Shown piece by piece: positions 3,371 through 56,475 of a DNA stretch of 64,000 nucleotides. The stretch is from contig OX597817.1 in assembly GCA_951406725.2 (NCBI GenBank), positions 26,412,001 to 26,476,000 of the forward strand, in the 5' to 3' direction. A program made the translations under genes and the position numbers. The notes beneath the pieces were generated by a model. It was not told the origin of the DNA and ran no database searches. It saw nothing but the letters and a program-made list of their open reading frames with translations. The DNA is from Octopus vulgaris. Lineage: Eukaryota. Numbering within the stretch: position 1 is the first letter of the stretch; every line of letters begins with the position of its first letter.

Positions 3371-3634
3371 TGAGGCAGCAGACTGGTAACCAAACAAATG
3401 GAATAGATTAAGTGTCAAAGATTGTCTTACATAGAATCTGATAACAAAGACATGACCAGTTATAAAATAAGCATATGTAACATAACATGACAAAGTGTCT
3501 AGAAAGAAATACAATTAGTAAAATTAACTTGTTAAAAGCATGAGAAACATTTATGAAACTAGCAATATGCCAAGGAATTTCCTTATATTTCTTCATACCT
3601 GCATTAAAAGTTTTGTTGATGGTATCAAATTTAA

Positions 3635-4708: not shown

Positions 4709-4871
4709 GTTCTATATTTAAGAGATGAGGAATTATTTAAATTATTTACATTTGACGGATACCTTAGGAATGAAAACCCAGGTTCGAAATTTCCCCAAGA
4801 CACCTGATGAAGACTGAAGAGTATATCAACAAGATGTGGACAAATATCCCACAAATGTAAATAATGTAAAT
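4709..4871 (+). mobile_element. Short Penelope-type element (family F) with inverted 5' head and internally deleted hammerhead
   Basis: gacac-CTGATGA retained, GAAA half deleted relative to copies at 23418 and 41170; AAAACAGACACA at 4693-4704 and 4872-4883. Confidence 0.75.
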
Positions 4872-5061
4872 AAAACAGACACAATTCTAAACTCCCAAAA
4901 GATAATGTTTTGCACCACAAGAACACAGTTCATATGCTACTGTTGAAAACAGTAATTTACATATAATAAATGTGAGGAAGAACAAAGGAATGACTCATGA
5001 AAGAACTCCAAGAGTTGCGTAATCTGACCACAGTTTAGGAAAATATCCAAAGAAAGTTCTA

Positions 5062-5380
5062 GGCGTTCCTTCGTTTTAACTCAACAAAACCATAACAAGA
5101 CCTTGGCTGTTTCCATGACAACTCTACAATTCACTTCAGATATCTTCGTGTCCTCCAAACATACACACATGAAGCAGGTAAGAACAGATATGCAAGGCTT
5201 TTTGCTGGCATAATTTCGTTATATCTGTATTCCACAACACATAAATACATAAAAACAGAACACGCACAGTGTCACAGAGGTCACGAAGGTCACGAAGATA
5301 TCTGAAGTGAATTGTCGAGTTGTCATGGAAACAAACGAGGTCCTTGTTATGGTTTTGTCGAGTTGAAACGAAGGAATGCC
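5062..5380. mobile_element. MITE, Merlin-like DNA transposon derivative
   Basis: About 90-bp terminal inverted repeats (GGCGTTCCTTCG...CGAAGGAATGCC); 8-bp TSD AAGTTCTA at 5054-5061 and 5381-5388. Confidence 0.85.
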
Positions 5381-5924
5381 AAGTTCTATGTAAGATTTTA
5401 ATGAAAATATAGGTTACGGGAAAAACGTGGACCTGATGTAATAGAATAACATTTGGAACGAACTAAGTATATAAGCAAAGACATGGAGAATAAAATGCAT
5501 ACCAACCATAGATCAATCAATACCAATAAAAGAGAAGGAGGATAAATATATTAAGGACATTCTATAAACAAGTGGGCTACGTGAAATTACATTGAGAAAT
5601 GAGAGCCATTTGCAAATGAATCAAAGAAATAATAGTTAAGTATTTAAGGGAAAAGCATAAAACAATGCTGAAGGATATAACATGTGGAAACAGGATTGGG
5701 AATACAAAAAAAAAGAGAAATGAATATATTTACGCAAAAAAATCCTAAACGATCTCAAAAAATGATCAAGATTGATTTCGGGGTGTTTAAAGCGGAAAAA
5801 GTTTACAAGTATTTTCTCACCTTTGACACAGAATCTTGTTTAATGTACCATAGAATACGTGTCGTGGAAAACTAAGGAGTCACACTTTTTATACTAAAAG
5901 ATAAAATATCATATATATATTCCT

Positions 5925-6130
5925 TATTCTTTACTTGTTTCAATCATTTGACTGCGGCCATGCTGGAGCACCACCTTTTCGTCGAACAGATCGACCCCCT
6001 AGGATTTATTTTTTGTAAACCTAGTACTTATTTATTGATCTCTTTCATCAAACTGCTAAGTTACGGGGATGTAAACACACCAACATTGGTTGTCAAACGA
6101 AGGTGGGGGGACAAACACAGATACACACAA

Positions 6131-6192
<62 letters not shown>

Positions 6193-6612
6193 GAATGGAG
6201 TTGAACGACTAGTTAACAAATATCCTTTATTCTCGACATATGTTTCGAAGGCTGCATATTCTTAATTCCAAAGGAATAAGGAGTACATTATGCAGATTTC
6301 TCATCAGAAAAATCAAGGAACTTATGTCGACATCAAAATGCACAAAAAACTTTTAGCTGACCGCTCTCAAGGAGCCCATATATAAATACATTTATGTTGT
6401 GCAAGATTTCTTATGTGAAGTCGTGTGTTGAAACAAATATTGTTATATTTCGGAATGGTCATTTTGCCAGTTTAGCTCATCGACAGAATTCTTTCGGTTT
6501 CCATCTATCAAATCCATTCATGAGGATTTGGTCAGCCCACAACTATAGTAGAAGAGACTTGCCTAAGGTTCTACGCAGTAGGACTGAGTCGGGAACCATG
6601 TGGTTGGGAAGC
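5925..6612 (-). mobile_element. SINE A interrupted in its (TA)n tract by two Penelope-type fragments (6190-6378 and 6394-6478)
   Basis: 3' half at 5925-6140, 5' half at 6488-6612. Confidence 0.85.
6230..6312 (-). ncRNA. Type-I hammerhead ribozyme, canonical core, long stem II
   Basis: ttttt-CTGATGA-gaa..CTGCATA..TATGCAG..ttc-GAAA-catatg-TC-gagaa followed by AATAAA; GUC triplet; palindromic stem III ACATATGT. Confidence 0.8.
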
Positions 6613-7089
6613 TAAGATGAAGGGAATTCTTACAGTGACTATCCACACTTTTTCTCTGGCAGCAGATATTCCTGAATATATTATGCAGTGTGTTACTATT
6701 TACCTGTCGTGTTTGAAGGTGGTCATATGTGATTTACAAAATATTTGACTGCTTTTTATAGAATGTTGAGCAATTGTGTAGTGGTGGATTTATGTATTGG
6801 CTCAGGTTATCCCATGTGTACCACTAATAAGGATGCACTGATATGAATGATAGTTGATGGCATATACTTCCTGCTACACAAAAAAGATCTATCACCTTGG
6901 GAGGTGAAAGGAAACTGAAGGATACTGAATGTGACAAGAAACTTACTAGTATATTGGCAGAATGCTACTAGAAGAGGCAAATTGTACATTGACAGAATGG
7001 TACTAGAAAAGACAAACTTTAAAAGAATTACCAAGCAAGAAGCTGGACTATCTACCAAAAAGCATATGGTATAATCATGCGATGTTTGA

Positions 7090-7308
7090 AGGCGGTGAGC
7101 TGGCAGAAACGTTAGCACACCGGGCGAAATGCGTAGCCGTATTTCGTCTGCCGTTGCGTTCTGGGTTCAAATTCTGCTGAGGTCGACTTTGCCTTTCATC
7201 TTTTCGGGGTCGATAAATTAAGTACCACTTACGCACTGGGGTCGATGTAATCGACTTAATCCGTTTGTCTGTCCTTGTTTGTCCCCTCCTTGTGGGTAGT
7301 AAAGAAAT
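7090..7308 (+). mobile_element. SINE family B
   Basis: Full head and AAAGAAATA tail; CATGYGATGTTTGA TSD. Confidence 0.9.
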
Positions 7309-8102
7309 ACATGTGATGTTTGATATCAATAATGGAATAAATTTTTCATATCAATACAGGAATAAAACCTTATTGGGATGAACATGAACTTGGTGACTCA
7401 ACTTAAATGTGACATGTGGGAAGAATTTACAGCAAATAGAAAATTCAGTGTATCACTATTTCTGCTATTACAAAAAATATTTTAATCTGCATTTATTATA
7501 TATTTCAAAAGATCAAAACAAGATACTTAGCCATGAATAACAAATCAATAATGTAATATCCCATGATAATTATTAATCAAAACTAGTAAGGAGATGGCTG
7601 TAATCTTGGTTTATTCAGTCAGGATTTGAAGTAGTAACATCGAAAGGTATTTTGATGCTTCTTCTTATGTGATTATAAAAGGAAGGAGAGTAATGAAATA
7701 TAAATGGATCGCTTACTTTTGGTTGCAATGTAAAACCAAATGTTGCATATATTTGCTTGTTACATGATGACGAAAGGAAAAAGAATGCAAGACAAATCTC
7801 TCGGGCATTCAAATGTTATTCCAGTTGTTGTTGTTAAGAGGAAAGTCAACTATAACTGAGCCTGTATTAACCATCATATAAAACTTTTAAGATATGATTT
7901 ATCAGAGACTACATTATCTAATGTATCCTTCATATAAGACAGTAGGTTATGATTTGAAGAAAACTTGGCTGCTATTTTTGGTTGGTTGAATGAATCCTAT
8001 TTTAATTGTCGTAGATGTCCTGGACAGATTATCAAAACAGCTACTTAAGTAACTTTGACTTATTTAAATTGTGAGCCAGATTATGGAAAATATATCTTCT
8101 AT

Positions 8103-8501
8103 AGGCGTAGGAGTGGCTGTGTGGTAAGTAGCTTGCTTATGAACTACGTGGTTCTGGGTTCAGTCCCACTGCATGACACCTTGGGCAAGTGTCTTCTACT
8201 ATAGCCTTGAGCCAACCAAAGCCTTGTGAGTGGATTTGGCAAACAGAAACTAAAAGAAGCCGGTCGGATATATGTGTATGTGTTTGTTTATGTTTGTATG
8301 TCTGTGTTTGTCCCCTTCCCAACATCGCTTGACAATCGATATCCCCGTAACTTAGCAGTTTGGCGAAAGAAACTGATACAACAAGAACTAGGCTTACAAA
8401 GAATAAGTCCTGGGGTCGATTTGCTTCGACTAAAGGCGGTGCTCCAGCATGGCCACAATCACATGACTGAAACAAGTAAAAGAGAATAAAGAGTAAAGAG
8501 T
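8103..8501 (+). mobile_element. SINE family A
   Basis: Matches 19-419. Confidence 0.9.
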
Positions 8502-8544
8502 ATCCTGTAAGAAAGAATCCTTAAAAACAAGGAGCCTGTTCCTT

Positions 8545-8768
8545 CCTTATGTATTAGCTTGAAATTTTGGCAGAAGGCCAGCAATTTTGGAGGAGGGGTA
8601 AATCAATTACATCACTCCCAGTGCTCAACTGGTACCTATTTTATCAACTCTGAAAGGATAAAACACAAAGTTAATTGCAGCAGAATTTGAACCCAGAACA
8701 TAAAGCTGGATTAAATGTCACTAAGTATTTTGGCCAGTGTGCTAATGACGTTGCCAGCTCACCACCAT
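8545..8768 (-). mobile_element. Degenerate SINE B'
   Basis: Recognisable central domain and head. Confidence 0.75.
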
Positions 8769-10653
8769 TCCTTCCCTATATATTAAGGCATTAATTCTGT
8801 GCTATCATTGATCTAGAACAGAATTATATTGATAAGTACTTTAGCTCCTAACTAAAACATTAATATACTGAAGGAGAAGAAAAAAAAATACTGACAGCTA
8901 ATCAATCTAACTAATAGAATATTAGTAAACCGTTCTCCAAAATATTCTGTAATAAGGTGACAGAACATTTGGCAATTCACCAAATAATTAGAGTAAAGCA
9001 GAACGAGGGTAAAACAAAGTTCTAGAAACAGCTGACAACTCCATATTAAGAAATAATGATGTAAAATTAAAAAACAGAAACTTGTCATGTTTGGGTGAGC
9101 TGATTATAAAACAAAAAGCTCTTTAATTGAATCTCATAAATCTAGAAAGTTTTCAAATATCAGAATATTCTGATGAACATCTTATGTTAGGAAAGTGGCA
9201 TAAAGTTCAGTAAACCATTTAGGAGTATAAACAGGAATAAATGTAATAATTCAATTATCACTGTACTTGCAAAATTCTTACAAGTTATTAGGTTAAATTT
9301 CACCAGCTGAAATCTAAAGCTAAAGTAGAGAATAAAATGAACTTACAAACATAAAACCAGAGAACTATAATGCATGCTAATAAAAGTAAACCTCGTATGA
9401 CAATGCTAGAGTTGAATATGTCACATAATAAAAATGAAACCCCTCTAAAAGAGAGAATTATCTAGAAGTAATTAAATCTCTTTGAGGCAGGTATCAGATG
9501 TATCTATCATATATAAACAGGACAACACTTCTAGTCATTTTGAGAACACATACAAGTCTTATATGAATCCCAAAATGATACCTAATATTTTGCAAGGCCA
9601 TTAAAGTGTAACCTTTGCAAACTGTAGTTGGAGGGGTGATAAAGTCTTAAATCCATTATGAAATCTATTTAAACTAACCATTCAGTTCTATTCCTTAAAA
9701 GATAAAATTATGTAACACCTTTTTAATCATCTACTTATTTTGGAAAACGCATTTAGTCTGGCTTGGGTGTACCAATCCCAATATAATCTTCCATTGATAT
9801 TTTTAAAAATAACTTTAGTCTGAGGAAAAGGAGCAAAGCACATGATATTTTTGAGGGCTCCTTTAGCAGGTAAGATGAAAGGATTAAGTTTTCCTCAGCC
9901 TGGAGCTTGAGCTGAATGCCTACAACAGAATGAACTCTGCTAAAGTCACACAAAGACAGTGATGTTAATCTCAAGATCAGGAAAGATCTCATCAGTGGGT
10001 CACTATTTAAAAATCAAATTTTTGTTTATCAAATTTCACTCAAATAGTTTTAGTCAACTGGTCAAGATTACAGCAATAGCCTAAACAATATTATTGAGAA
10101 AGGAGGTTTTCTCAACTACACAATTAAGCCTGCACCCATAGTAGTAATATTAACTGTCTGTATCACCAGACACATGGGAAGTGAGAAACTACAAAGAAAT
10201 TTTGCTGACAGAACTATAGTGGAACCATATTGTAATATGCAATAGGTTTACAAGCTTTCTCATAATTTTCCATTTTCGTTTTTTCACTGGTAAATTCAGA
10301 AGATATGCATTCATTTGTTTAAAGAAAATGACAGCTTATCAAAAATGTAAAACTAAGTTCCAGAAAATATTAATACAAGAGTCAAAAAATCTTGATTAAG
10401 CAGCCTAGATTACTAAAGTTATCTAAAAAGACATACAGTTAAGAATATCTAATTTAAAATCAGAATTGCTTTCAGTTACCATGGGCAACAGTTCAACAGC
10501 TGTTCAGCTATTGCTGTCTTTAGCACCAGTTTCTTAAGTCATGATACAGCATTGCTACCAACTCCACAAGCATCAAATATACTTACTAGGTTTCTTATGC
10601 AGTAGTTGAAATTTCAAATACATACATACATGCTTACACACACATATATATAT

Positions 10654-10844
10654 AGGGAGAGTTTATGAAAAAAAACAAAAGATGAAGACAGGTGGTGTAC
10701 AAAACAAACAGATATATTAGTATAATGCTCAGGAATAGAAAAAGTCTTTTACGTTTCAAGCCTACGCTCTTCTACAGAAAGGTACACAGAAAAAACAAGG
10801 AGAGAAAAAAATGTGTGTAGTGGCTAACGATCTATCATGGCGAC
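10654..10844 (-). mobile_element. Short Penelope-type element in (TA)n
   Basis: Bounded by TA repeats, contains a hammerhead-like motif, shares TTCCTGAGC motif with 40440-40636. Confidence 0.65.
10746..10781 (-). ncRNA. Minimal hammerhead-like motif with A6U
   Basis: cttt-CTGTAGA-a-GAGC gtag GCTT-GAAA-cg-TA-aaag; stem III palindrome ACGT; GUA triplet. Confidence 0.6.
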
Positions 10845-12370: not shown

Positions 12371-12828
12371 AAGATTAAAACCTCAACATCACCTTACATA
12401 TCCCGATATAGCGTATTTAAAATATATCAACCAGTTATCATTAATAGCATAATATAATCAATAAATTATTGTTTCCTCTAAATAAATTTCATGCAATCAT
12501 ATTTTCTAGATATTCTTCCTTACTAAATAAGTTTACTGTTAAAATTATTTGTTTTGAAAAATTTAACAGATGTAACAAGTCTTAGGATTACATTTGATAA
12601 ATTTATGAACTTAACAATGCATACTAGACGATAATGGAACAATATTATATTGTAAAATAGTTCAAGAAAAGAAAAAACAAATGGTACTTTATAATCGACT
12701 ACTTTGATTTATACATTTGCCAATTTCGGTTCTTTCCTTTTATAATTGTCTTCTCTAAATGCAAAAATATTGAAAAACTATAAAGTAATTTTGTTATTGG
12801 TCATTCATATTAGATAATAAATAACATA

Positions 12829-13216
12829 GGCATAGGAGTGGCCGTGTGGTAAGTAACTTGCTTACAAACCATACGGTTCCGAGGTCAATCCCACTGCATG
12901 GTACATTGGGCAAGTGTTTTCTGTTACAGCCTCAGGCCAACCAAAGCATTGTGAGTGGATTTGGTAGATGGAAACTGAAAGAAGCCCGTCGTATATATGT
13001 ATATATGTTTGTGTGTCTGTGTTTGTCCCCCCAACATTGCTTGACAACCAATGCTGGTGTCCTTACGTCCCCGTAACTTAGTGGTTCGGCAAAGGAGACT
13101 GATAGAATAAGTACTAGGTTTACAAAGAATAAGTCCTGGGGTCGATTTGGTTGACTAAAGGTGGTGCTCCAGCATGGCCGCAGTCAAATGACTGAAACAA
13201 GTAAAAGAGCAAAGAG
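12829..13216 (+). mobile_element. SINE family A
   Basis: Matches 19-419. Confidence 0.9.
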
Positions 13217-13562
13217 TAACATCTTTTATTTATAAAAACTACCAGGTTTTGATCTGCAAAGAGCTTTTCCTTAAAACAGCTTCCAGTCATAACTTCTTCA
13301 ATTTCAGCGGAGAAAAAATAACACACATAGCTTTTTTTTTATTTCTTTGCCTCTGAAACTTTTAGAGGAAAGGAAGAAGAAATCATAATTCATACATAGT
13401 CCTCAGACCTGGGGTTCAAGTCTAGATATTTGCAATAAAAGTGGACTCCACTAAAGACACTCAAAGTTCAGGCAGTGTTGTTCAACAGAACAATGAATTA
13501 AGACTATAGCCCAAGTACAGGTATTGCTCGTACAACATGTTGCCACCTGAACTTTGCCCAGG

Positions 13563-19104: not shown

Positions 19105-19469
19105 ACTCTTTTACTCTTTTACTTGTTTCAGTCATTTGACTGCGGCCATGCTGGAGCACCACCTTTAATCGAGCCACTCGACCCCGGGACTTATTCTTTT
19201 GTAAACCCAGTACTTATTCTATCGGTCTCTTTTGCCGAACCGCTAAGTAACAGGGACATAAACACACCAGCATCGGTCGTCAAGCAATGCTAGGGGGACA
19301 AACACAGATACACAAACACACACACGCATATATATACATATATATATATATACATATATACGATGGGATTCTTTCAGTTTCCGTCTACCAAATCCACTCA
19401 CAAGGCTTTGGTCGGCCCGAGGCTATAATAGAAGACACTTGCCCAAGGTGCCACGCAGTGGGACTGAAC
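19105..19469 (-). mobile_element. SINE family A, 5' truncated
   Basis: Reverse complement of 19-419. Confidence 0.9.
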
Positions 19470-20449: not shown

Positions 20450-21483
20450 TATTAGTGATTCGATTGTAAGATATTTTATTGGTTGAACGATATTTCAACA
20501 GTAAGTCTGTCTTTGTCAAGTTCAAAATAACAAGTGATAAAAATTCAAAATTATATAAATTTAAATGTAAAGTATGAACGAGAGCAACCAGTGTCCACAC
20601 GTTGATGGAATGACATCATCAGTTTTTAAGTTACAATTTTATAACAAACGAAAAGAAAAAGACAGAAAAAAAACAGAAAAAAGGAGAAATAAAGAGAGAA
20701 AGAAGAATATTATTCAAACATTTTTATATAAATTTGATGATATTCTCCTGTCATCTTATTCATTCCTCCAGGGCATAATGTTAATAACCCGCAAGCATAT
20801 TTCTCCTCATACATTCTGAGAAGTGAAAGTGAAGCAGATTCAGAATATTTTCTGAGAATATGCACTTTCAAGTCTTCTTCAAAATTGCAGCCGCTTGAAA
20901 CGAAATGTTCAGAAAGTTCTGTTGAACTACTGTTATTGTGCCTAACATCGAATGTGTCCATTAAACTTTGTACAACCAATATAATTTAAGTTTTGTTTCA
21001 TGCATTCTGCAGCGTACACCAAATGGGTGCCTTTACATGTTCCACCTTCTGTATAAATCATAAAAGAAATGTTATGATTTCGGATGGAATTCACTTCATT
21101 CATGTTGTTGCAGACGCTTGAAACGAAATGTTCAGAAAGTTCTGTCGAACTACTGTTATTGTGCCGGACGTTCATTCTGTGCCCATTAATCCTTTTGTTT
21201 AATTGTTCTGTTGTAACAACCAACATAAATTAATTTGTGTTTTGTGCATTCTGCAGCGTACACCAAATGCGTATCTTTACATGTATAAATCTTTACAGAA
21301 ACGTTATGATTTCTGATGGAATTCACTTCACTCATGTTGTTGCACAATGAACAGGGCTTACTCCTCTTGCGGCTGTTCTTTAAGGTTCGTTTTCTTGGAG
21401 TCTGATATAGAGGTCAATAATTCTCTTATATTCTTACTCCGTCTAAAGGCTACAATAGGCGGCTGAGGAAATATCTGTTTGAA
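20450..21483 (-). mobile_element. Inverted 3' arm (pseudo-LTR) of a Penelope-like element, with an internal duplication of the GIY-YIG segment
   Basis: Reverse complement of 22033-22829; LVYAAEC motif present twice. Confidence 0.9.
20483..20525 (-). ncRNA. Minimal type-I hammerhead ribozyme, U3:A8 variant
   Basis: TTGAAC-TTGACAA-a-GACAG actta CTGTT-GAAA-ta-TC-GTTCAA then AATAAA; 6-bp stem I; AUC triplet. Confidence 0.8.
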
Positions 21484-22829
21484 GGATCTGGGAAGGATCA
21501 CAGGATAGTTTAATGGACTTCTTGCATTTCTGTGACTGTTATACTAGAAACTATAGCTTTAAGTCCAGCATAAAATTTACGTATAATTTTTCAAAAACTA
21601 GCGTTGAATTTTTAGACACAAAAGTCAAGTTTTCTGGAGGCAAAATAGAGACAGAGTTACTTTGCAAGTCCACGTCATCCCACATTTCTCTTCTCCGCCA
21701 CTCTGATCATCCACATCATCTTATTCTCTCAAATCCGAAATCCCAATTTTTGAGGATAAAACGGATTTGTACTTCATAGGGGATTACTGGAAACATGTAA
21801 ATGCTTTTGTATGTCATTATGTCAAACATAGTTACAGTGAATCACAATTAAAGGAAATAGCAAATGAAATAGCTAATACTAGCAAAGATAGTCAAACCTA
21901 CACGCATAATTTTAGCAAACACAATACAATAGATGACAGAATTCCTTTAGTGATTAGCTGGCACCGATATTTCGCTGGCATTTCAAAAGTGTTGCATGAA
22001 AGTTACCAGCATGTGGCGAAAAAAATCCTCGTTTCAAACAGATATTTCCTCAGCCGCCTATTGTAGCTTTTAGACGGAATAAGAATATAAGAGAATTATT
22101 TACCTCTATATCTGACTCCAAGAAAACAGACATTGGAGTATCTGCACGCTGTACCTTAAAGAACAGCTGCAAGAGAAGTAAGCCCTGTTCATTGTGCAAC
22201 AACATGAGTGAAGTGAATTCCATCAGAAATCATCACATTTCTGTAAAGATTTATACAGAAGGCGTAACATGTAAAGATACCAATTTGGTGTACGCTGCAG
22301 AATGCACAAAACACAAATTAATTTATGTCGGTTGTTACAACAAAACAATTTAACAAAAGGGTTAATGGGCACAGAATGAACGTCCGGCACAATAACAGCA
22401 GGTCGACAGAACTTTCTGAACATTACGTTTCAGGCGGCTGCAATTTTGAAGAAGACTTGAAAGTGCATATTCTCAGAAAATATTCCGAATCTGCTTCACT
22501 TTCACTTCTCAGAATGTATGAGGAGAAATATGCTTGCGGGTTATTAACATTATGCCCTGGAGGAATAAGATGACAGGAGAATATCATCAAATCATCTTCT
22601 TTCTTTTCCTTTTATTTTTTTTCTGTCGTTTTCGTTTTTCTGCTTTTTTTCTGTCTTTTTCTTTTCGTTTGTTATAAAATTGTAACTTAAAACTGATGAT
22701 GTCATTCCATCATCGCGTGGACGCTGGTTGCTCTCGTTTACATTTAAATTTCTATAACTTTGAATTTTTAACACTTGTTATTTTGAACTTGTCAAAGACA
22801 GACTTACTGTTGAAGTATCGTTCAACCAA
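21484..22829 (+). pseudogene. 5'-truncated Neptune-type Penelope retroelement: RT C-terminus/thumb, Cys-rich linker, GIY-YIG endonuclease, 3' UTR
   Basis: SVEFLD, SDHPHH..SQFLRIKRICT, PPIVAFRRNKNIRE, C..SCKRSKPCSLC, LVYAAEC..IY.G...RVNGHR, LLTLCPGG; frameshifts and stops. Confidence 0.9.
22783..22825 (+). ncRNA. Mutated copy of the U3:A8 hammerhead
   Basis: Same stems as 20483-20525 but TTGTCAA and GAAG in the core. Confidence 0.65.
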
Positions 22830-22896
22830 CAAACGAACCACGCTCTTCGTCTTGACTCTTTATCTTTGTGAAGGGTTAAGTCAATCCTTTTTAAGA

Positions 22897-28916: not shown

Positions 28917-29164
28917 CTGTAGCAATAAATGGAAAGGAGTGAAGAGAAATATCATTGCAAAGGGTATAGTGTACTTTTAATTTAAAACATTTTCTGACCG
29001 GTCATTTTACTATATTTTGAGATCTGTAGAACTATTCTACTTTCCTGTTGCTAACCCTCACCTGATACCAATTAAGTAATATTTCCTCATGACCAGGCAT
29101 GTTTCCATGTAAAATTCAAAACGAGGGACACTGCTTGCACGATGGTGGTATTTATTTACAAATA

Positions 29165-29397
29165 AGGCGAGCGAGCTGGCAGAAACGTTAGCACGCCGGG
29201 CGAAATACTTGCCGGTATTTCGTCTGCCGTTACGTTCTGAGTTCAAATTCCGCCGAGGTCGACTTTGTCTTTCATCCTTTTGGGGTCGATAAATTAAGCA
29301 CCAGTTACGCACTGGGGTCGATGTAATCGAATTAATCCATGTGTCTGTCCTTGTTTGTCCCCTCTGTGTTTGGCCCCTTGTGGGTAGTAAAGAAATA
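29165..29397 (+). mobile_element. SINE family B
   Basis: 18-bp TSD GGTATTTATTTACAAATA. Confidence 0.95.
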
Positions 29398-29589
29398 GGT
29401 ATTTATTTACAAATATCTCTTGAAGTCAAAGCAAGGAGACAATAACCGATATATACTTATATATACATACAGGGTATCACATGTAAATTCTCTCAGTGAA
29501 TTCTCTAGTGAGTTCACTAGAAGTTGTTGACAGTTCCTGCTAATTAGATGATCTAATTAGCAGTGGAGAAGTGTGTTTCAAGAGAGCAT

Positions 29590-34663: not shown

Positions 34664-35802
34664 AAGTACTAATATATATATTAGTATACGCACATGCATG
34701 GACATATACGCAAAGCAAGATACTCCAAATACTTATCGATATAGATGTATGTACCGGTGAGTTTTATAATTTAGGGAGTGATAACAGAGGTAGAAATGAA
34801 ATGAGACTGGAGAAAGAAATGTGTGAGTGTCTATGGGCAGAAGCTGCTGAATCTTATAGCCATGAGTATAATAGTGATCTTCACAAACAAATTAATCTGC
34901 ACCAACATGAACTCACATTGCACAAGAAGAAAATATAAATGCAAAAAGTAAAAAAATATATAGATGAAAATAATTAAAGCAAAAGGTTTTCAGAAAATGT
35001 ACCGAACTCTATATTGTAAAGAATGTTGTGTTATTTGGTAGAAATTTTCTTCTTCTTCTTCTTCATCTTCTTTTTCTTCTTCTCCTCCTCTTCCCCTTCT
35101 CTTTCCCGTCTCCTTCCTCCTCCTCCTCTTCTTCTTTTTTCTTATTATCATTACATTGCTTTTTATCAGTGAAGGCCATTAATAAAAGGAATGTTAGTGG
35201 TGTGTATAAATATATATGCATATATATATATAAATGTATGTATATTACACACATACTCACACAGATTCATGTGTGTATATATATATATATGTGTGTATGT
35301 GTGTATTTGTGCATGTATATATATATATATATATTTACATACATACATGTACACATATAAATACACACATGCATACACACCAAATATATACACTAAATAT
35401 TGTGGCAGTGTCACAGGCACTTAAAAATTGGACTTTCAAAATAATTAGGCATATGCCAATAATATATTTTCATCCTCAATTAACAAAACAGATCTATAGT
35501 TACGAAAAGAATGTTCCTGGGGAATGAAAGGGAAAAATATGATTGATAAGAAAAAATGCAGCATTAGGTGAAGAAAAAATCATGTAAATAAATTTTTTTC
35601 CACAATGGAAACAACAATTGTGAAGAGGATAAGCAAAATAATACCAACGTTTATCAAAGTGAATGAAAGAAATTCCTCTGAACAACGGTAAAGTCCTTGA
35701 TGGCATGGACTGAAAATAGAAATGTATATACATATATATACACACATATATGCATACATACGTATATATGTATACATATATATATATACATGCATATATA
35801 TA

Positions 35803-35844
<42 letters not shown>

Positions 35845-35916
35845 TATATATATATACACATATTCATATATATATATATATACACACATATACATATATA
35901 TACATATATATATATA

Positions 35917-36127
35917 TTACGGAGATGTACTCACATAGCAAGTGATTTGATCTGAGATCGTGTGCTGGAACGAAAACAATTGCAGTGTGGAAGGTGTTTG
36001 TAAGCCATTTAAGAAACACACAAAAGCCGTTCGATTCACTTCAACATTTAAGTTTAATTTGTCAAAATATTTTCGTCGCTAAAATCCGCGACCTGTTCAC
36101 TGACAAAAATCCGTCCTACATCTGTAA
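35917..36127 (-). mobile_element. Short Penelope-type element in (TA)n with short inverted termini
   Basis: TTACGGAGATGTA...TACATCTGTAA ends; contains a hammerhead fold. Confidence 0.7.
36058..36107 (-). ncRNA. Minimal type-I hammerhead ribozyme motif, G3:C8 variant
   Basis: TTTGTCA-GTGAACA-g-GTCGC ggatttta GCGAC-GAAA-atat-TT-TGACAAA; perfect 7-bp stem I and 5-bp stem II; palindrome AATATT. Confidence 0.75.
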
Positions 36128-36371
36128 TATATATATAAATTTTACAAAAATTTTTGTATAAGGTTACCGATAATGGTTCTTTTATGATACTGAACTACTT
36201 GGTAAAATTATCAATTATTAATTGATTAATTAATTTTACTCTTTATTATTATTATTATTTTTATAATTTTATAATTGTTAAATTTCTAAATGTATATAAA
36301 TTATTTTATGTATTGGCTTAAGTCTTTCTTTGTTTGATTTGCATAATAGTGGTTTTGTCTCTAATTTAATA

Positions 36372-36411
<40 letters not shown>

Positions 36412-36499
36412 CATGTTTATTAATATTTGTTTTTATACCAAGTTATAATAAAAGCAATTTAACATTAACCTTATGAATTACTCAATATTATTTTGCAGA

Positions 36500-36732
36500 A
36501 TGCAGCGAGCTGGCAGAATCGTTAGCACACCGTGTGAAATTCTTAGCAGTATTTCGTCTGCCACTACATTCTAAGTTCAAATTCTGCTGAGGTCAACTTT
36601 GCCTTTCAATCCTTCCAGAGTCAATTAAATAAGTACCAGTTACACACTGAAGTCGATGTAATCGACTTAATCCTTTTGTCTGTTCTTGTTTGTCCCCTCA
36701 ATGTTTAGCCCCTTGTGGGCACTGAAGAAATA
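36500..36732 (+). mobile_element. SINE family B
   Basis: 16-bp TSD AATATTATTTTGCAGA. Confidence 0.9.
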
Positions 36733-36847
36733 AATATTATTTTGCAGAGCACATGTTTGTTAAGCTTCTACAAGAAGAGCGGTGAAAGTGACTTCAAAGT
36801 TTCAACTTGCTAGTCTGTATCTGACTTGTGGTATCCGTTTTATTAAA

Positions 36848-37172: not shown

Positions 37173-38456
37173 ACTACAAATACATGTATGAAGTTAAATT
37201 GAAAAGGTAGCTGCAACTGTGCAAGATAATTGATAAGAAATTATGAGAAAATATTACTTGTTTATATATATATTTATTGTCAGAAGAAAAAAGGGCATCA
37301 TCCATGACCCACATCTGGAACTCCAAGATTGGTAAGATGAAGAGCAGAAGTAATTCTAAAACCAGAGACATAGCTGGGATACAAAAAGGGCTACTTGACA
37401 ATATTAAAGTAGGTAATACATTAAGTCTGCCTCTCAAAAACAAAAATAGTCTCTGTGATGAGTTTTTACACAGTATTTTTCTTGCAAATTTTATTCACAA
37501 AAGTCTGGCTGATTCAATTGTGTAGTAGAAGGTACTTGCTTTAGTTTCCACATTGTAAGATCAAACTTGAAATTCCTTAGTGACAATGTAAGATCTATAA
37601 TATGTTTGTAGTTCCTGTAGCAGCCTGCTAGTTGAGGGAAACTACTCTGCTAAGCTAGAAGATTCTTGAATTGTCATTTAAAACAGATATTACATTTTCC
37701 CCTTGAGTACAGGCTTTAAGATATTTATCTCAGTGCTCTAACATGGAAATATAATAAACATCCTTTCTGAAACACAAACAAAAGATATTCTAAAATCTTG
37801 TCTCCAAGAGAAGACATATCCCCCTCATCCTATTTAAACCAGGAAAAAGAGTACAGAGGTTAACAATTGTTACAATAAATCATTTCAAAGTAAGCATGAG
37901 TTATTGATGTCTTCCATAATATGGAATAATGATTTCAGTATTTTATGAAGTTTTTTAACGATCATCTGTTCCTTTGGGGTAACATAGGTTAGAAGATATT
38001 GTATATTTCAATACATTCATGTCTATTTGGAACAAGCATTCTCCAGGAAAATGCCATGCCCAATAGCAGTCTAACACTCAATCATAAAATAGCTGGACAT
38101 AAGAAAGAAACTTGTCTCGCCTCAATTTACAATTCCTTGCTAGTTGTAAGATGTGATTTCATGACCTCTGTGCCAATAATCAGATATATTAATCTATCAG
38201 CTAGCCCGAAGCAGCATAGTTTTTATGAATAACTTTTATTACATCATTTTAACCATTTCTGAGAAACTAAACTGGAAAATAGAAAGGTATATTATATTTA
38301 TATTTCATCTATGTACAATAATGCTTTTATCTCTTTTAATTTTTAGAAAACCCCCAATCTTTTGTACTCCTAGTTAGTTCATTCATATCTTATAGTTTTG
38401 TTAATTTATATGAAATATAAGTTACAAATATTAGGATTTTCCTTATAATAATAAAT

Positions 38457-38622
38457 AGGTGCAGGAGTGGCTGTGTGGTAAGTAGCTTGCTTACCAACCA
38501 CATAGTTCCAGGTTCAGTCCCACTGTGTGGCACCTTGGACAAATGTCTTCTACTATAGCCTCGGGCCGACCAAAGCCTTGTGAGTGGATTTAGCAGATGG
38601 AAACTGAAAGAAGCCTGTTGTG

Positions 38623-38653
<31 letters not shown>

Positions 38654-38890
38654 GTGTGTATATGTTTGTGTGTCTGTGATTGTCTATGATTGTCCTCCCC
38701 AACATCACTTGACAGCCGATGCTGCTGTGTTTACGTCCCTGTAACTTAGCAGTTTGGCAAATGAGACCAATAGAATAAGTACTAGGCTTACAAAGAATAA
38801 GTCTAGGGGTAAATTTGCTCAACTAAAGGCAGTGCTCCAGCATGGCCGCAGTCAAATGACTGAAACAAGTAAAAGAGAGAGTAAAAGAGA
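38457..38890 (+). mobile_element. SINE family A
   Basis: Matches 19-419. Confidence 0.9.
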
Positions 38891-39221
38891 GACCACAACT
38901 GAATTTGTTAAAGCATCAGCTGACTTACATTTTTTGTCATTACACACACACACACTCACATATTTGCATGTGTGTGTTTATGTATGCATGTAGGTTTTGA
39001 TGAAAGTAAAAGTACATGTGTATCCATGTGCTTGTTTACATTTGCACTTCTCAGAAATTTAGTGAGTGCTGATATTTTCCCTATCAACAGGTCATCTATT
39101 GCAAATTCAAATACATGTCAATAATGCAACCCTTAGGAAGAGCTTCTGGCTATAAAAACAATGCTTCAGTAATATACTCATCTATCCCATGCTAGCATGG
39201 AAAATTGAATAGTAAAACAAT

Positions 39222-39453
39222 ATATTTGTTTATTGCCCACAAGGGGCTAAACATAGAGGAGACAAACAAGGACAGAGAAAAGAATTAAGTCGATTACATC
39301 GACCCCAGTGCGTAACTGGTACTTTATTTATTGACCCCGAAAGGATGAAAGGCAAAGTCGACCTCAGCGGAATCTGAACTCAGAACATAGCGGTAGACGA
39401 AATACGGCTACGCATTTCGCCCGGCATGCTAACGGTTCTGCCAGCTCGCCGCC
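39222..39453 (-). mobile_element. SINE family B
   Basis: GAATRGTAAAACAATAT TSD. Confidence 0.9.
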
Positions 39454-40439
39454 TAATGAATGGTAAAACAATATGATGATTAGAATTATTTTGAAGGGCA
39501 GTTTCTTTTCCCTTTTTAACATATACAGGAACATATTGAAGAAGGATAGTTAAACAAAACACTGGCAAATTTTCACTGAGAACAGATGCTTCCAAGTACA
39601 TATACTGTTTTGTTAACTCAGATGAAAAATATATAATGTCAAAGGTTATTCCAAATACTGAAGATTCAGATAAAGGTTGACTGTCAGATTAAACCACTTC
39701 ATACAAATTTGCAACTGCCACAAATCCGAGGACATTCTCCTGCTCATATTTCATGTAAAAAGGTATTTTCACTGGAAATATTAGGGTGTAAAATGTTTTT
39801 TCCTACTGCTTTCTGGGATTTTGGTATGACTAGAATAAAATCAATAAGTACAATACACCTGCATCGCTGCAGTCAGGTAACTGAAATCAGTGGAAGAACA
39901 AGAGAATAAAAGAATGATGATAAATAATGTTTAAAAGTAACAGAACTTTAAGCTTCAAGACTACTAATTATGCTGTTATAAGTTCAGAATATTCTAAAGC
40001 CGATGTGTTGTGCATCTGAGCAATTACATAACATTGCTTGTTAATTTTCTGACCAAGCCTCAAGCATGTTCTTTTGTAACAATTAATAAGTTAACAACAG
40101 AAAGAGCTGTCAAATCTAAAATAAATGGCAGTGCAATAAGCCATGGAATCTCAAGCTAGAATAAGCAAAAAGTGAATGTACAAATTAGTAGAATGTTAAA
40201 AAATATTCAAGAGATTTATAGATATTGCATCATTGGTTAGTTCTTCAGGTCATTAAATCAACCAAGTTAAGATTTGAATCGCATGTGTGTCATTGATTGA
40301 ATGACAGCTAATGACACCCAGAGTTCTGAACCATCAGCTCAGTTCAGTTCACACACACACACACACACACACAAGTACACATACACGTGCATACACACAC
40401 GAGCACACACACATATTTATAAATATATATATATATATA

Positions 40440-41169: not shown

Positions 41170-41345
41170 TTTCAAGTTCATTATTTACATTATTTACATT
41201 ATTTACATTATCTACATTCAACGGGTATTTGTCCTCATGTTGCTTGTTGTTAACACTATGTTTCGGCTGATATACCCTCCAAGCCTTCTTCAGGTGTCTT
41301 GGGGAAATTTCGAACCTGGGTTCTCATTCCTAAGGTATTTTTTGA
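41170..41345 (-). mobile_element. Family F Penelope-type short element
   Basis: Homologous to 4709 and 23418; abuts (TTA/TTG)n. Confidence 0.8.
41252..41298 (-). ncRNA. Minimal type-I hammerhead ribozyme, canonical C3:G8 core
   Basis: GACAC-CTGAAGA-a-GGCT..AGCC-GAAA-ca-TA-GTGTT. Confidence 0.7.
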
Positions 41346-43098: not shown

Positions 43099-44855
43099 AG
43101 AGTCATTTGACTGGTTTGATTTGAGAGAGATTTAACTACTATATTTGATAAATCAAGCTATATCATAGAGACTTTGTCACTGTCCCAAGAATTCGTTTGT
43201 TTATCTATAACATACAAGGGAATTATATATACCATCAAAGAATAACCAGGATACATTATTCCCATTGATTATTACAGTCATCGTGTCATCATATTGCTTA
43301 GCTCTTGGTCAATCCTGATGAAATAGACATGCATTCAATAGTATTCCAACTATAAAACTTTTAGACAAAGTGTATTGCTGACTATATTATCTAATGTACC
43401 CTTTATTAGAAATGGCAGTGTGTCATTAAAGGAGATTAACTGCAATTTCTGGTGATCATATTTTCATTGATGGCATGACAATGCTATGTTAAATAGAGAT
43501 GATTGTGGTGTGAATGTGTAAATGGTATGGAGATTTTAGGTGTGTTAATGACAGTGAGGATATTTGGAAGCAAAATCCATAAATTGTAAGGTTGATACTT
43601 GTGTAAAGTGAAATAATGGATCATATAGTAATGTTGCTGACCGTGGAATTGATGTTTATCATAATATTTGCTTTCTAAAATGGACACAAGACCTCACATT
43701 TAGATAGTGGGGTTTCAGCAGATCAGAATGACCTCACTTGTTCTTAATTTAGTGGTCAAGCAGAGCAATTAAAAGCAAAGTTGACATTAGCTGAAATTGA
43801 AATGATGACACAGAGAGTCGTAAGCAAATCCTGCAAGTGGCTTTATTCAACACTCAGCCTTTTCTGTTGATCCACCACACTACCATTGTAATCATAATAT
43901 TTGAAGGCAACTGTACTGTGTAAATAAATATGAATGTTGTTAACCCATAAACATGAATAGTAAATTCAGATAACCTTCTATAATATTGTTGCTAAGTAGT
44001 TCACTCGACAGTATCATCAAGAACATATGTGTGTGTCCCTGTGAGTGTAAATATATGTATATATATATACATATGTATGTGTGTGTATGTGTGTATTGTG
44101 TTTGTGTATACATATTAAAACCATTGACATTATAAGCATTGTTCCTATCACAACAACTTGCTAACAACTCCAAATCAATAGTGAAAGTATCTCATCGATA
44201 TAAAAGGTTTTAGAATTGAAAATGTGTCATTATGTTCTCCAAAAGTGTTAATCATTATAGGGATACAAGCTTAAATTACACTGTAAAGGGAGCAGCCTTT
44301 ATGTTGAAGTAAAAGTACATTTGAGACAGGACAAAACAACACATTAAATGCTCTCCAATTTAATGATGCTGTTGTTACAATAAGTAGCATTTAGTTATTT
44401 TTATATTTTACATTGATTTTATAACCCTGTTAATATGCAATGAAGATTATACACATTTTGAATAATATTTATACAATGAAGGTACAATTACTGAATAACA
44501 GGCCATAAAACCAAAGAGTTAATAAATTTTGAGTTAATTATATTCCTATAAAATAATTATTTTATACCAGGGTACTTCCAAATGCTAATTCATGACATTA
44601 AATAGAGCAGATACCTATGAAAGTGTGGTACAGTTCTGCTAGTAGAAGTATTTTAATCTATGATCAAATACTAAAGTGTAAAAAAATGGTATTTTCTTTT
44701 CCATTTTGCTCTCTTTATTTCATATCTGAACAGCTTAAATGAATCTGTAATGTTAGTGAAACTTGATTCCGATATGTGCTGATTATTAAAATATCAGAAA
44801 ATGTTTTAAGAAAATCTTATCCAAACAATATTTGTACAAAGCCAAACACAGTTAT

Positions 44856-45262
44856 CTCTTTTACTCTCTTTTATTTGTTTCAGTCATGTGACTGTGGCCA
44901 TGCTGGAGCACCACCTTTGGTCGAGCAAATCGACCCCAGGACTTATTCTTTGTAAGCCTAGTACTTATTCTATCGGTCTCTGTTGCCAAACTGCTAAGTG
45001 ACGCGGACGTAAGCACATCAGCATCAGTTGTCAAGCGATGTTGGGGGGTGGGACAAACACAGACACACAACCATATACACACACATACATGCATATATAT
45101 GACGGGCTTCTTTCAGTTTCTGTCTACCAAATCCACTCACAAGGCTTTGGTCAGCCTGAAGCTATATTAGAAGACACTTGCCCAAGGTGCCACGCAGTGG
45201 GACTGAACCCGGAACCATGTAGTTCGTAAGCAAGCTACTTACCACGCAGCAACACCCACACC
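44856..45262 (-). mobile_element. SINE family A
   Basis: Reverse complement of 19-419. Confidence 0.9.
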
Positions 45263-46058
45263 TTTTATGTTATGGAGAATTATTTCTGTATTTGCAAACC
45301 ATTTGAAGCCAAATTTGAATATCACAACAAAGCTTGAAATGTTGAAATGTAACTGTATAAAAATATAACAATACAAAAATAATAATTAGCATATAAGGTG
45401 TGAGTGTTGCTGCATGGTAAGTAGCTTGCTTATGAACTACATGGTTCCGGGTTCAGTCCCACTGCGATTTGCTCGACCAAAGGCGGTGCTCTTATTGGAC
45501 ATTCGTTTAATGTGAAGTAAATGGATTCTCTACCAGTTTTGTTGATAAGTATTCTCACTCTTTAATCAGATTTTACACTTAAATCAAATCACTTAATAAA
45601 CTTATAATTAGCAGTGTATTCCACAAACATGTCCAAGTAGAATTGGTGTTACAAAACTGGGTCTTCGAATTTCTGATACATTCTAATTGACAGGCATCCG
45701 TGCAGTTTATGTCTATCCAATTTTGCCTGGTACGTTTGAGTTCAGCCAAGGCTACACCTCATGATTGCAAGGCAAAATTCTTAAGAATTCAGTCATGCCT
45801 ATACTCACGTGTTCATTTAAACACTCACGCACACACATGCATACACACACATGCATACACACACATGTGCATGCACATTCCACATCACACACACCCCACA
45901 TCACACACCACGCAAACACATATAAGCACACAAACACACATATATATATGTCCACAATTAAACTCATGTAAAAAGCCACACACATGCACAAAGCCATTTC
46001 AGTAGAAACATTGAGATCACAGAAGCCATTGAGAAATTTCAGGCAGTGAAGCATAAGT

Positions 46059-49047: not shown

Positions 49048-49610
49048 GAAGTACACTGTCATAACATGATTTTGGAATAGTTCACTCTTTATCCATGTTT
49101 TGATGGGATTTACAAAGATGCTTGCCATCTCATTTAAATTTGTGTGCCCCTTACACTTTTATTTGTCTGGAATTACAGTATTTATGAAGATCATTTTGTC
49201 CAGTTATTTCTGCGACTGTTGTGGTTCTTATTACTACTATAATGAATTTTCATATTTTCACTATTTTCTTTGGCACCTGTTACAGTTGTTGTTGAGGCCA
49301 ATGTTAAAGCCTTTAAACGTTACATTCCATAGTTAAAACATTTCAATACTCTTTTATCCCTTCCCTTAGCTTTATCATCAAACCTACAATAAACAGTTTA
49401 TTATTTCAGCCATGTCTAGGATATTGTTATATTTTCCAAGGAAGGACTTACTGCATTTTGTAATCTGTATGTTCTTAGTTTAAATCATACCAGATTCCCT
49501 TTGCCTGTCATCCTTCAGAGATCGTTAAAATAAGGACCAGTGAACTTCTGAGCTATAAACAATTGATATAACATGCACTTATCCCAAATGGGTGACCTTG
49601 TACCTATACC

Positions 49611-49840
49611 TATTTCTTTAGTGCCCACAAGGGGCTACACACAGAGGGGACAAACAAGGACAGAGAAACGGATTAAGTCGATTACATCGACCCCAGTGCG
49701 TAACTAGTACTTATTTAATCGACCCCGAAAGGATGAAATGCAAAGTGGACCTCGGCGGAATTTGAACTCAGAACATAGCCGCAGACGAAATACGGCTACG
49801 CATTTCGCCCGGCGTGCTACCGATTCTGCCAGCTCATCGC
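49611..49840 (-). mobile_element. SINE family B
   Basis: 15-bp TSD CCTTGTACCTATACC. Confidence 0.95.
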
Positions 49841-50149
49841 CCTTGTACCTATACCATTCTGGGACACCTCCTTCAAGGTTTTAGTAAATCAAATTGATCC
49901 CAGCATTTATTTTAAGCCTGGTTCTTTTTCTATCAATCACTTTTTGCCAAACCACTACGTTACAAGAATGTAAAGAAAAAAAAATTAGTGAAACATTAGT
50001 AAGTACAGATTCATCACGGCAAAAGAACTTGGGTTACAACGTATTCTTTAAAGAATTATTATGTTTGAAATATTATATAAAATGTAATATGTTCATGTAT
50101 ATGTTGTACAACTCCAGTATATAACTGGTATACTAGTGCTTATTTTATT

Positions 50150-52416: not shown

Positions 52417-52860
52417 AAAGGTGGTAAGCAGGCAAAATTGTTAGCATTCCAGGCAAAATGCTTAGTGGTGAGTTGGCAGAATCGTTAGCACGCCGGGCAA
52501 AATGCATAGCGGTATTTCATCTGTCGCTACGTTCTGAGTTCAAATTCCGCGGAGGTCGACTTTGCCTTTCATCCTTTCGGGGTCGATAAATTAAAGTACC
52601 AGTTATGCACTAGGGTCGATGTAATCGACTTAATACTTATGTCTGTCCTTGTTTGTCCCCTCTATGTTTAGCCCCCTGTGGGTAATAAAGAAATAGGTAT
52701 TTCATCCATCTTTATGTTCTGAGTTCAAACTCCACTGAGGTCACTTTGCCTGTCATCCTTTTCGGGTTCCATAAAGTAAGTACCATTTGAGCACTGGGGG
52801 GTCGATGTAATCAACTTAACCCCTCCCCTAAATTGCAGGCCTTGTACCAAAATTTGAAAC
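52417..52860 (+). mobile_element. SINE B (52467-52695) nested in an older SINE B'
   Basis: Host resumes at GGTATTTCATC. Confidence 0.85.
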
Positions 52861-55866: not shown

Positions 55867-56051
55867 CTATAATTTCTATATATATATATATATATTTGCA
55901 TAAAGTTTAATCAACATGCTGTTGTCAAGCATGTTTATTAAACTTTAAATAAATTTAATAATAACAGAGACAGAGACTATTAGTGAAATGCTTACAATTC
56001 ATATATGCATATTTATAAGGCAACTTACTTATGTATTCTCTTTACTCATTT

Positions 56052-56475
56052 AAGGCGGCGAGCTGGCAGAAGCTTTAGCACGCCGGGCGAAATGCATAGC
56101 CATATTTCGTCTGCCACTACATTGTGAGTTCAAATTCTGCCGAGGTTGACTTTGCCTTTCATTCTTTCGGGGTCGATAAATTAAGTACCAGTTACTCGCT
56201 GGGGTAGATGCAATCGACTTTATCCCTTTGTCTGTCCTTGTTTGTCCCCTCTATGTTTAGCCCCTTGTGGGCAATAAAGAAATATCTTTACTCTTTTAAT
56301 CTTTTATTTGTTTCAGTCATTTGACTGCAGCCATACTGGCGCACCGCCATTAGTCAAAACAAATTGACCCTAGAACTTATTCTTTGTAAGCTTAGCACTT
56401 ATTTTATCAGTCTCTTTTGCCAAACTATTAAGTTACGGGGTCGTAGACACTCCAACTTTGGTTGTCAAGTGATGG
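56052..56475. mobile_element. SINE B (+, 56052-56284) inserted in the tail of a SINE A 3' half (-)
   Basis: TCTTTACTC.TTTAA TSD. Confidence 0.85.

What the first reader, a model, noticed from the sequence alone, without database searches (positions are those of the whole stretch)
36058..36107. Natural G3:C8-swapped hammerhead in a 210-bp TA-inserted element
Minus strand reads TTTGTCA GUGAACA G GUCGC-ggauuuua-GCGAC GAAA AUAU UU UGACAAA. Stems I (7 bp) and II (5 bp) are perfect, U4 G5 A6 A9 and G12 A13 A14 are intact, and exactly positions 3 and 8 are reciprocally exchanged. I know the G3:C8 swap mainly as an engineered rescue mutant, and natural examples seem rare; that is recollection, not a search. 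The predicted triplet UUU is a weak one. Retained CpGs suggest a young copy. The 5' end is a short inverted copy of the 3' end, as expected for Penelope-type insertions.
Basis: partly seen in the sequence, partly recalled or inferred. Interest (0 to 1): 0.8.

Follow-up and report, generated by a model that had tools for sequence, protein, structure and literature searches.

The report
Swapped-core hammerhead in octopus Penelope retroelement
This is the short end-piece of a very common octopus jumping gene (a Penelope-like element) whose predicted self-cutting hammerhead RNA has two paired core letters exchanged throughout the family, so it is likely a natural version of a variant otherwise made in the lab, although cutting has not been shown.

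Summary
The minus strand at 36107-36058 is a minimal type I hammerhead with G3:C8 in place of C3:G8 and the other core letters intact; nothing as strong appeared in 15 random 64-kb windows. It lies in a 208-bp piece inside a TA microsatellite. That piece is the 5'-truncated end of a Penelope-like element (PLE). An ATG 56 nt after the predicted cut opens 31 codons matching Octopus proteins (28 of 31 residues), which link by homology to a 1047-aa reverse transcriptase plus GIY-YIG-type ORF. The swap is family-wide: in 4 of 4 runs (300-10,715 contigs each) no reversion to C3 or G8 reaches 2%. A second loop-II subfamily keeps the core, and the one common stem variant is a wobble. The 'inverted 5' end' is not supported, and U17 is ordinary in PLE hammerheads (24 of 56). 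Natural U3:A8 is published; I found no natural G3:C8 in nine paper searches, but one key paper was unavailable. This scan noted the swap before on other DNA (protist PLEs, phages). Cleavage is untested. Verdict: new variant of a known kind, interest 0.45.

The parts
35917..36124 (-). 5'-truncated end-piece of a Penelope-like element: end of the pseudo-LTR, hammerhead, and a tail that runs into the ORF
   Evidence: Depth of laid contigs falls from about 60,000 to 155 at 36128 and heterogeneous AT-rich loose ends lie before 35916/35917; ORF match
36058..36107 (-). Minimal type I hammerhead motif, stem I of 7 bp
   Evidence: Sequence, descriptor scan with chance control, fold
36094..36100 (-). 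First core box GUGAACA: G3 (36100) and C8 (36095) in place of C3 and G8
   Evidence: no C>G change anywhere and no unaccounted G>C change at >=2% in 4 of 4 runs
36093..36093 (-). Unpaired nucleotide between A9 and G10.1 (here G)
   Evidence: a bulge at this place is a stated trait of PLE hammerheads (PMC4209133)
36075..36092 (-). Stem-loop II, 5 bp, closed by G10.1-C11.1; the loop differs between subfamilies
   Evidence: Pair probabilities 0.99-1.0 in the whole piece; other loop in the loose ends behind 36080
36066..36071 (-). Palindromic helix III region AAUAUU (A15.1 to U16.1), likely pairing between two copies
   Evidence: Self-complementary; dimer use inferred from PMC4209133
36064..36065 (-). 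Predicted cleavage site, 3' of U17 (36065)
   Evidence: Position inferred from the hammerhead numbering; not tested
35916..36008 (-). First 31 codons of the PLE ORF (ATG at 36008; stop at codon 26 in this copy); the element's 3' end falls about 92 nt into the ORF
   Evidence: 28 of 31 residues identical to P0004, tblastn E 6e-13
35725..35916 (.). TA-rich microsatellite, left flank (insertion target)
   Evidence: Sequence
36125..36138 (.). Short TA run, right flank
   Evidence: Sequence

Best explanation
This is a 5'-truncated copy of a high-copy octopus Penelope-like retroelement, and its hammerhead carries a family-wide G3:C8 core pair that likely still lets the RNA cut itself weakly after U17, probably as a dimer or with help from the element's protein. 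Shown: the motif, its place 56 nt upstream of the ORF start, the 3' end about 92 nt into the ORF, the TA target, and the constancy of G3 and C8 across copies. Inferred: the element's RNA is read in the minus direction; reverse transcription started inside the ORF's first codons, primed at a nick in the TA repeat, and stopped 17 nt past the ribozyme, leaving this solo piece. Inferred from hammerhead chemistry: positions 3 and 8 need to form a Watson-Crick pair, so the exchange keeps the active fold, at a lower rate. Helix III is only a palindrome, so two copies in a tandem transcript would pair through it. This single copy is probably silent; the ribozyme would act in the parent's tandem transcripts.
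For: Motif beyond chance. Family: 19 of 24 listed runs, under 5 organism labels, hold at least half of the 16 sampled words; 7751, 10715, 4713 and 300 contigs laid. No C>G change at any place and no unaccounted G>C change at >=2% in 4 of 4 runs; in X9 neither 36100 nor 36095 has any change at >=2%, in X2 36095 has none. Loose-end consensus behind 36080 (72, 79, 61, 7 contigs) has another loop II but the same stem II arm and core. The only stem change at >=10% in X2, 36062 (12.3, 15.1, 7.4, 14.8% in the four runs), turns a U-A pair into a U-G wobble on the minus strand. ORF chain: window codons to P0004 (O. sinensis) and P0005 (O. bimaculoides), to P0006/P0022 (O. vulgaris, reaching the DKSG motif and RT motif A), to the 1047-aa P0020 at 37%, E 4e-98; Atlas neighbours of P0020 score 0.96-0.98, several with RVT_1 or GIY-YIG on part of their members. 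The engineered C3G/G8C double change partly restores cleavage in an Anolis PLE hammerhead, whose insertions also end inside the ORF start and which cleaves only with protein added (PMC11167929).
Against: No cleavage data; contigs cannot show RNA ends. In the whole 211-nt piece stem I has pair probability only 0.10-0.14 because other folds compete; in the 66-nt fold stem I extends by a G3-U17 wobble, which is not the active form. Constancy across copies can come from descent from one master: 1 place at >=10% in 50 nt of motif against 9 in 141 nt beside it is too few to test, and loop-II differences are under-counted by clipping. Contigs with several changes near the core are clipped, so divergent cores are under-seen; one loose-end group of 9 contigs in X2 (agreement 0.58) shows a degraded core, and 828 loose-end rows were not shown. 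One C>T place in X2 and X16 and two in X5 are hidden and could include 36100; two G>A places in X5 and one in X16 could include 36095. Ribozyme mutants did not affect insertion in vitro in Anolis. No single DNA record joining this motif to a full ORF was seen; Pfam found no RT or GIY-YIG family on P0020 itself.
Confidence: 0.68

Rival explanations
1. Same PLE origin, but the motif no longer cuts: the swapped core was fixed by a successful master copy, and the hairpin is kept only as a fold that the element's protein binds, or is not under selection at all.
For: Hammerhead mutants did not affect insertion in vitro and no RNA-seq ends were found at the cut site in Anolis; PLE minimal hammerheads cleave poorly in vitro; stem I is weakly populated in the whole piece; the excess of constancy in the motif is not testable on 10 places.
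Against: Exactly the two paired positions are exchanged and every other core letter is canonical; two loop-II subfamilies share the core, and the common stem variant keeps pairing.
Confidence: 0.25
2. The piece is a non-autonomous tandem retrozyme unit that travels as a small circular RNA, not a plain truncation product.
For: Head-to-tail joints from 36108-36118 back to 35988 occur in runs X5 and X9 (depth up to 1587.5 in X5); a 2026 preprint derives animal retrozymes from PLE pseudo-LTRs (10.64898/2026.07.22.740005).
Against: This copy is single, ends inside the ORF start as PLE insertions do, and other copies extend further 5'.
Confidence: 0.04
3. The piece is a TA-targeting miniature DNA transposon with short terminal inverted repeats, or the swap is private decay of this one copy.
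For: TA on both sides and a 7-letter inverted match at the ends.
Against: One end is coding sequence of a reverse-transcriptase ORF; the other continues in further copies; the swap is in the bulk of laid contigs of four runs.
Confidence: 0.03

Closest known systems
Minimal type I hammerheads in the pseudo-LTRs of metazoan PLEs (Cervera and de la Pena 2014, PMC4209133)
   Same: Type I topology, unpaired base after A9, G10.1-C11.1 pair, palindromic helix III, U-rich 5' flank, many solo copies from truncated elements, U17 common.
   Different: G3:C8. Of the 56 representative motifs in their Fig. S3, by my reading 53 have C3:G8, 2 U3:A8, 1 U3:G8, none G3:C8; their descriptors asked for C3:G8 or U3:A8. 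The bulge is G (consensus H; 1 of 56 has G). No cephalopod is among them.
Natural U3:A8 hammerheads (Perreault 2011, PMC3088659; about 1,300 hits in Schistosoma mansoni, PMC4209133)
   Same: A natural compensatory change of the 3:8 pair, in one case in a PLE family.
   Different: U3:A8 keeps pyrimidine at 3 and purine at 8 (two transitions); G3:C8 reverses the pair (two transversions).
Anolis Poseidon element PAc and its engineered C3G/G8C mutant (Frangieh 2024, PMC11167929)
   Same: Hammerhead at the pseudo-LTR/ORF junction, insertions that end inside the first codons of the ORF, AT-rich targets; the double change partly restores cleavage.
   Different: There G3:C8 is a lab mutant and the ORF starts inside the ribozyme; here it is the natural family state and the ATG lies 56 nt after the cut. 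The 3' end is about 92 nt into the ORF, against 111-118 for the main start site there.
Neptune/Nematis-type EN+ PLEs (linker CX2-5CxxC; TA bias), as described in Craig 2021, PMC8557442
   Same: [quoted passage not shown]
   Different: No tree was built and the octopus parent's own endonuclease was not seen, so the clade is not assigned.
Non-LTR retrozymes of animals
   Same: Non-coding-sized unit with a type I hammerhead, derived from a PLE end.
   Different: This copy is not tandem and includes the ORF start.

Membership tests
Minimal type I hammerhead of PLEs | Stems I and II around the core, open end in stem I | tested here: met
   7 and 5 Watson-Crick pairs
Minimal type I hammerhead of PLEs | U4 G5 A6, A9, G12 A13 A14, A15.1-U16.1, H17 | tested here: met
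   All present
Minimal type I hammerhead of PLEs | C3 and G8 as in the published consensus CUGANGA | tested here: not met
   G3 and C8; the pair is kept but reversed. Hence filed as a variant, not a plain member
Minimal type I hammerhead of PLEs | Unpaired base between 9 and 10.1; G10.1-C11.1; palindromic helix III | tested here: met
   36093; 36092:36075; 36071-36066; traits listed in PMC4209133
Minimal type I hammerhead of PLEs | Self-cleavage after N17 | not testable with these tools
   Only contigs were laid; they cannot show RNA ends
Rfam hammerhead families | Score at a family's threshold | tested here: not met
   0 matches at gathering; no hammerhead family among 3 matches at E<=10
Penelope-like element (EN+) | Hammerhead in the pseudo-LTR next to the ORF start | tested here: met
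   ATG 56 nt after the predicted cut; 28 of 31 residues match P0004
Penelope-like element (EN+) | ORF with PLE-type reverse transcriptase | tested here: met
   By a chain of proteins: P0004 to P0006 (79%), its cluster member P0022 with DKSG and RT motif A, 37% to P0020; Atlas neighbours
Penelope-like element (EN+) | C-terminal GIY-YIG endonuclease in the parent | tested here: inconclusive
   GIY-YIG-like stretch seen by eye in the 37% relative P0020; the octopus fragments stop earlier; Pfam silent
Penelope-like element (EN+) | 3' end (tail) inside the first codons of the ORF | tested here: met
   End at 35917; AT-rich loose ends before 35916/35917 and, in 16 contigs each of X2 and X5, before 35979
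Penelope-like element (EN+) | Inverted 5'-truncated copy beside the 5' end (often, not always) | tested here: not met
   Only a 7-letter match in this copy; opposite-strand joints at 36113-36123 occur in single contigs of other copies
Neptune/Nematis clades | CX2-5CxxC linker and place in the RT tree | tested here: inconclusive
   Linker seen in P0020 only; no tree built
Non-LTR retrozyme | Two or more tandem units, each with a hammerhead | tested here: not met
   Single copy in the window; go-back joints exist in other copies
Tc1/mariner-type MITE | Terminal inverted repeats at fixed ends | tested here: not met
   5' end continues in other copies; 3' end is RT-ORF coding sequence

The most novel reading that the evidence does not exclude
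A whole animal PLE lineage runs on an active reversed-core (G3:C8) hammerhead, with U17 co-selected because C17 would trap G3 in a Watson-Crick mispair; such cores are invisible to CUGANGA descriptors, so part of the PLE families reported as hammerhead-less carry hidden ribozymes, and all the 3:8 pairings are used in nature (this one window also holds C3:G8 and U3:A8 candidates).
Probability: 0.3. Interest if true: 0.65.

Novelty: new variant of a known kind. Interest (0 to 1): 0.45.

Why it matters
The 3:8 pair is the tertiary pair that forms in the active hammerhead. Its natural covariation is in print as U3:A8; G3:C8 I found only as an engineered rescue. A family that fixes G3:C8 in thousands of laid contigs under several organism labels is a natural test of whether PLE hammerheads are kept for cutting: each single change abolishes cleavage in the Anolis PLE ribozyme, so the lineage either crossed an inactive step or went round it. 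It also has a practical side: published surveys asked for CUGANGA (PMC8557442; PMC4209133) and Rfam does not see this motif, so counts of PLE ribozymes and claims of their absence need a search with positions 3 and 8 free. The element type, its ribozyme layout and the tolerance of the pair are known, which limits the surprise.

Tried and rejected
No whole genome is held for the window, so copies were judged from contigs of public runs. No second copy lies in the window. DNA pattern scans found no relative: metagenome contigs 0 and 1 match (L001 shares only 23 letters and nothing downstream: chance), viral contigs 0 and 1 match (L002 has no tblastn match to the PLE proteins), genome contigs 0. 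Scans for loci encoding relatives of the ORF found none in viral or genome contigs or phage records, so I could not read the hammerheads of the distant relatives P0007-P0031. A word search with P0004 residues 1-225 among longer proteins found none of 995 candidates; the full HMMER scan did. PDB sequence search with P0020 gave nothing meaningful. Likeness between this piece and the end of the neighbouring PLE remnant is within shuffle range (39 and 48 of 200 shuffles as good), and that remnant's ORF does not align to P0020: not the parent. The methyltransferase half of P0004 is taken as a gene-model fusion, not part of the element (inference). Summed depth was not turned into a copy number. Lunse 2017 and Przybilski and Hammann 2007 are not held; supplementary file 1 of PMC4209133 could not be searched and part 3 of file 2 was not read; they may bear on whether natural G3:C8 is already in print.

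Full report
Observation. The minus strand at 36107-36058 reads as described: a 7-bp stem I, the box GUGAACA, one extra G, a 5-bp stem II closed by G10.1-C11.1, GAA, a palindromic AAUAUU, U17 and the second arm of stem I. Relative to the hammerhead consensus only positions 3 and 8 differ, and they are exchanged. A descriptor with these two positions free finds this motif as the only hit in the window at stems I>=7 and II>=5, and 0 hits in 15 random windows of matched local composition. The 66-nt stretch folds better than all but 2 of 200 shuffles. Rfam does not see it.

The family. No genome was held and the window has no second copy, so I used public runs. Of 24 runs listed, 19 under 5 organism labels hold at least half of the 16 sampled words. 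I laid 4 of them, one each of labels A, C, D and E, at 80% likeness and a 2% threshold: 7751, 10715, 4713 and 300 contigs fitted. Depth drops sharply at 36128 and unrelated AT-rich loose ends lie before 35916/35917, so the piece is an interspersed repeat with a fixed 3' end. A return to the canonical core would show as C>G at 36100 and G>C at 36095 on the plus strand. No run lists any C>G place, and every G>C place is accounted for elsewhere. The table showed 40 of 48 rows; bookkeeping leaves 1 C>T place hidden in X2, 2 C>T and 2 G>A in X5, none of either in X9, and 1 of each in X16. These could include 36100 or 36095, though CpG sites at 36112 and 36168 are likelier (inference). A second subfamily, seen as loose ends behind 36080 in 72, 79, 61 and 7 contigs, has a different loop II with the same stem II arm and core. 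The one change at >=10% inside the motif in X2 is 36062 (7-15% over the four runs), which makes a U-G wobble in stem I on the minus strand. Against this: 1 such place in 50 nt versus 9 in 141 nt is too few to test; clipped contigs hide divergent cores; one group of 9 contigs in X2 shows a degraded core; 828 loose-end rows were not shown.

The parent. An ATG at 36008 on the minus strand, 56 nt after the predicted cut, opens 31 codons with a stop at codon 26. They match the first 31 residues of an Octopus sinensis gene model, P0004, at 28 of 31. Residues 1-224 of P0004 find 17 proteins at E<=0.001, among them P0005 (O. bimaculoides, 90%) and P0006 (O. vulgaris, 79%). [quoted passage not shown] Its Atlas neighbours score 0.96-0.98 and several carry RVT_1 or GIY-YIG on 16-77% of members; Pfam gives nothing on P0020 itself. 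So the piece is the end of a pseudo-LTR plus a tail about 92 nt into the ORF. This parallels the Anolis element, whose insertions end at reverse-transcription start sites inside the ORF (PMC11167929). The link is a chain of proteins; I saw no DNA record with motif and full ORF together, and scans for such DNA failed.

The ends. One side is ORF codons 27-31; on the other, 33 contigs of X5 continue past 36124 with a shared sequence and other copies differ within the match. I read the 5' end as a plain truncation 17 nt upstream of stem I. True inversions occur in other copies (opposite-strand joints at 36113-36123 in single contigs), as do head-to-tail joints back to 35988, which would give the tandem hammerheads that a dimer needs.

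Mechanism. Shown: anatomy, position and family-wide state. Inferred: in the active hammerhead 3 and 8 form a Watson-Crick pair; single changes abolish and the double change partly restores cleavage, also in a PLE hammerhead, which cut only with protein added (PMC11167929; PMC8495972 passage). Helix III is only a palindrome, which points to dimers (PMC4209133). Folding models are lukewarm: stem II is certain, stem I has probability 0.10-0.14 in the whole piece, and the short fold adds a G3-U17 wobble. A C at 17 would make that a full pair; one paper notes, as data not shown, that a G3-C8 variant is less active with C17 than with G17 (PMC3884650 passage). U17 may thus be favoured here, but it is common anyway: 24 of 56 published motifs by my count. 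I put 0.68 on a weakly active ribozyme and 0.25 on a non-cutting relic or binding fold.

What is known. PLE minimal hammerheads with this layout are described (PMC4209133: main text parts 1-2 of 4, supplement file 2 parts 1-2 of 3). Natural U3:A8 is described (same paper; PMC3088659, passages). None of the 56 motifs of Fig. S3 has G3:C8, but the descriptors could not have found it; the Naiad survey likewise asked for cuganga (PMC8557442, passages). Nine paper searches and passage searches in PMC6765202, PMC6155905, PMC10085705 and PMC13725137 gave no natural G3:C8 and no octopus hammerhead; of the 2026 retrozyme preprint I read part 1 of 5. Lunse 2017, the most relevant survey of PLE hammerhead variants, was not held, so 'not in print' is provisional. 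Earlier notes of this scan report the same swap in three protist PLEs and three phages; I did not check them. None covers this DNA.

Verdict. A real, family-wide natural G3:C8 hammerhead motif in an abundant octopus PLE, with its parent ORF traced.

Noticed in passing
window 41254-41298, minus strand (C3 at 41293): A canonical C3:G8 minimal hammerhead (CUGAAGA, bulged A, stem II, GAAA, 5-bp stem I) of another repeat, next to (AAT)n tracts; likely another PLE end.
   Followed up: partly
window 20475-22860: Decayed PLE remnant: a GIY-YIG-like frame by eye at about 22000-22530 on the plus strand and a 640-bp inverted copy of its end at 20475-21112. The inverted copy holds a U3:A8 hammerhead candidate (minus strand, position 3 at 20519); the plus copy near 22780 has two core changes. 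A CUGAUGA box lies about 90 nt upstream in both copies without a clean GAAA. With the finding and the 41293 motif, three different 3:8 pairs occur in one window.
   Followed up: partly
window 36148-36200: The right flank holds a separate repeat of lower abundance (summed depth up to about 17,000 in X2 against about 2 million for the element).
   Followed up: no
window 35979-35988 (family copies in runs X2, X5, X9): A second, shorter 3' end about 30 nt into the ORF, and head-to-tail joints back to 35988; these may mark a second reverse-transcription start site and tandem hammerhead units.
   Followed up: partly
proteins P0004, P0005, P0006, P0022, P0014: Several Octopus gene models are pieces of this PLE ORF; P0004 fuses its N-terminus to a methyltransferase domain and P0014 is named a kinase, probably annotation artefacts.
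   Followed up: partly
window, e.g. 20-417, 8101-8496, 12814-13219, 19106-19469, 38445-38890, 44855-45268; and 958-1189, 29162-29410, 36499-36743, 39212-39459, 49606-49841, 52467-52702, 56046-56288: Two abundant interspersed repeat families of about 400 and 240 bp, 76-90% alike, probably SINEs.
   Followed up: no
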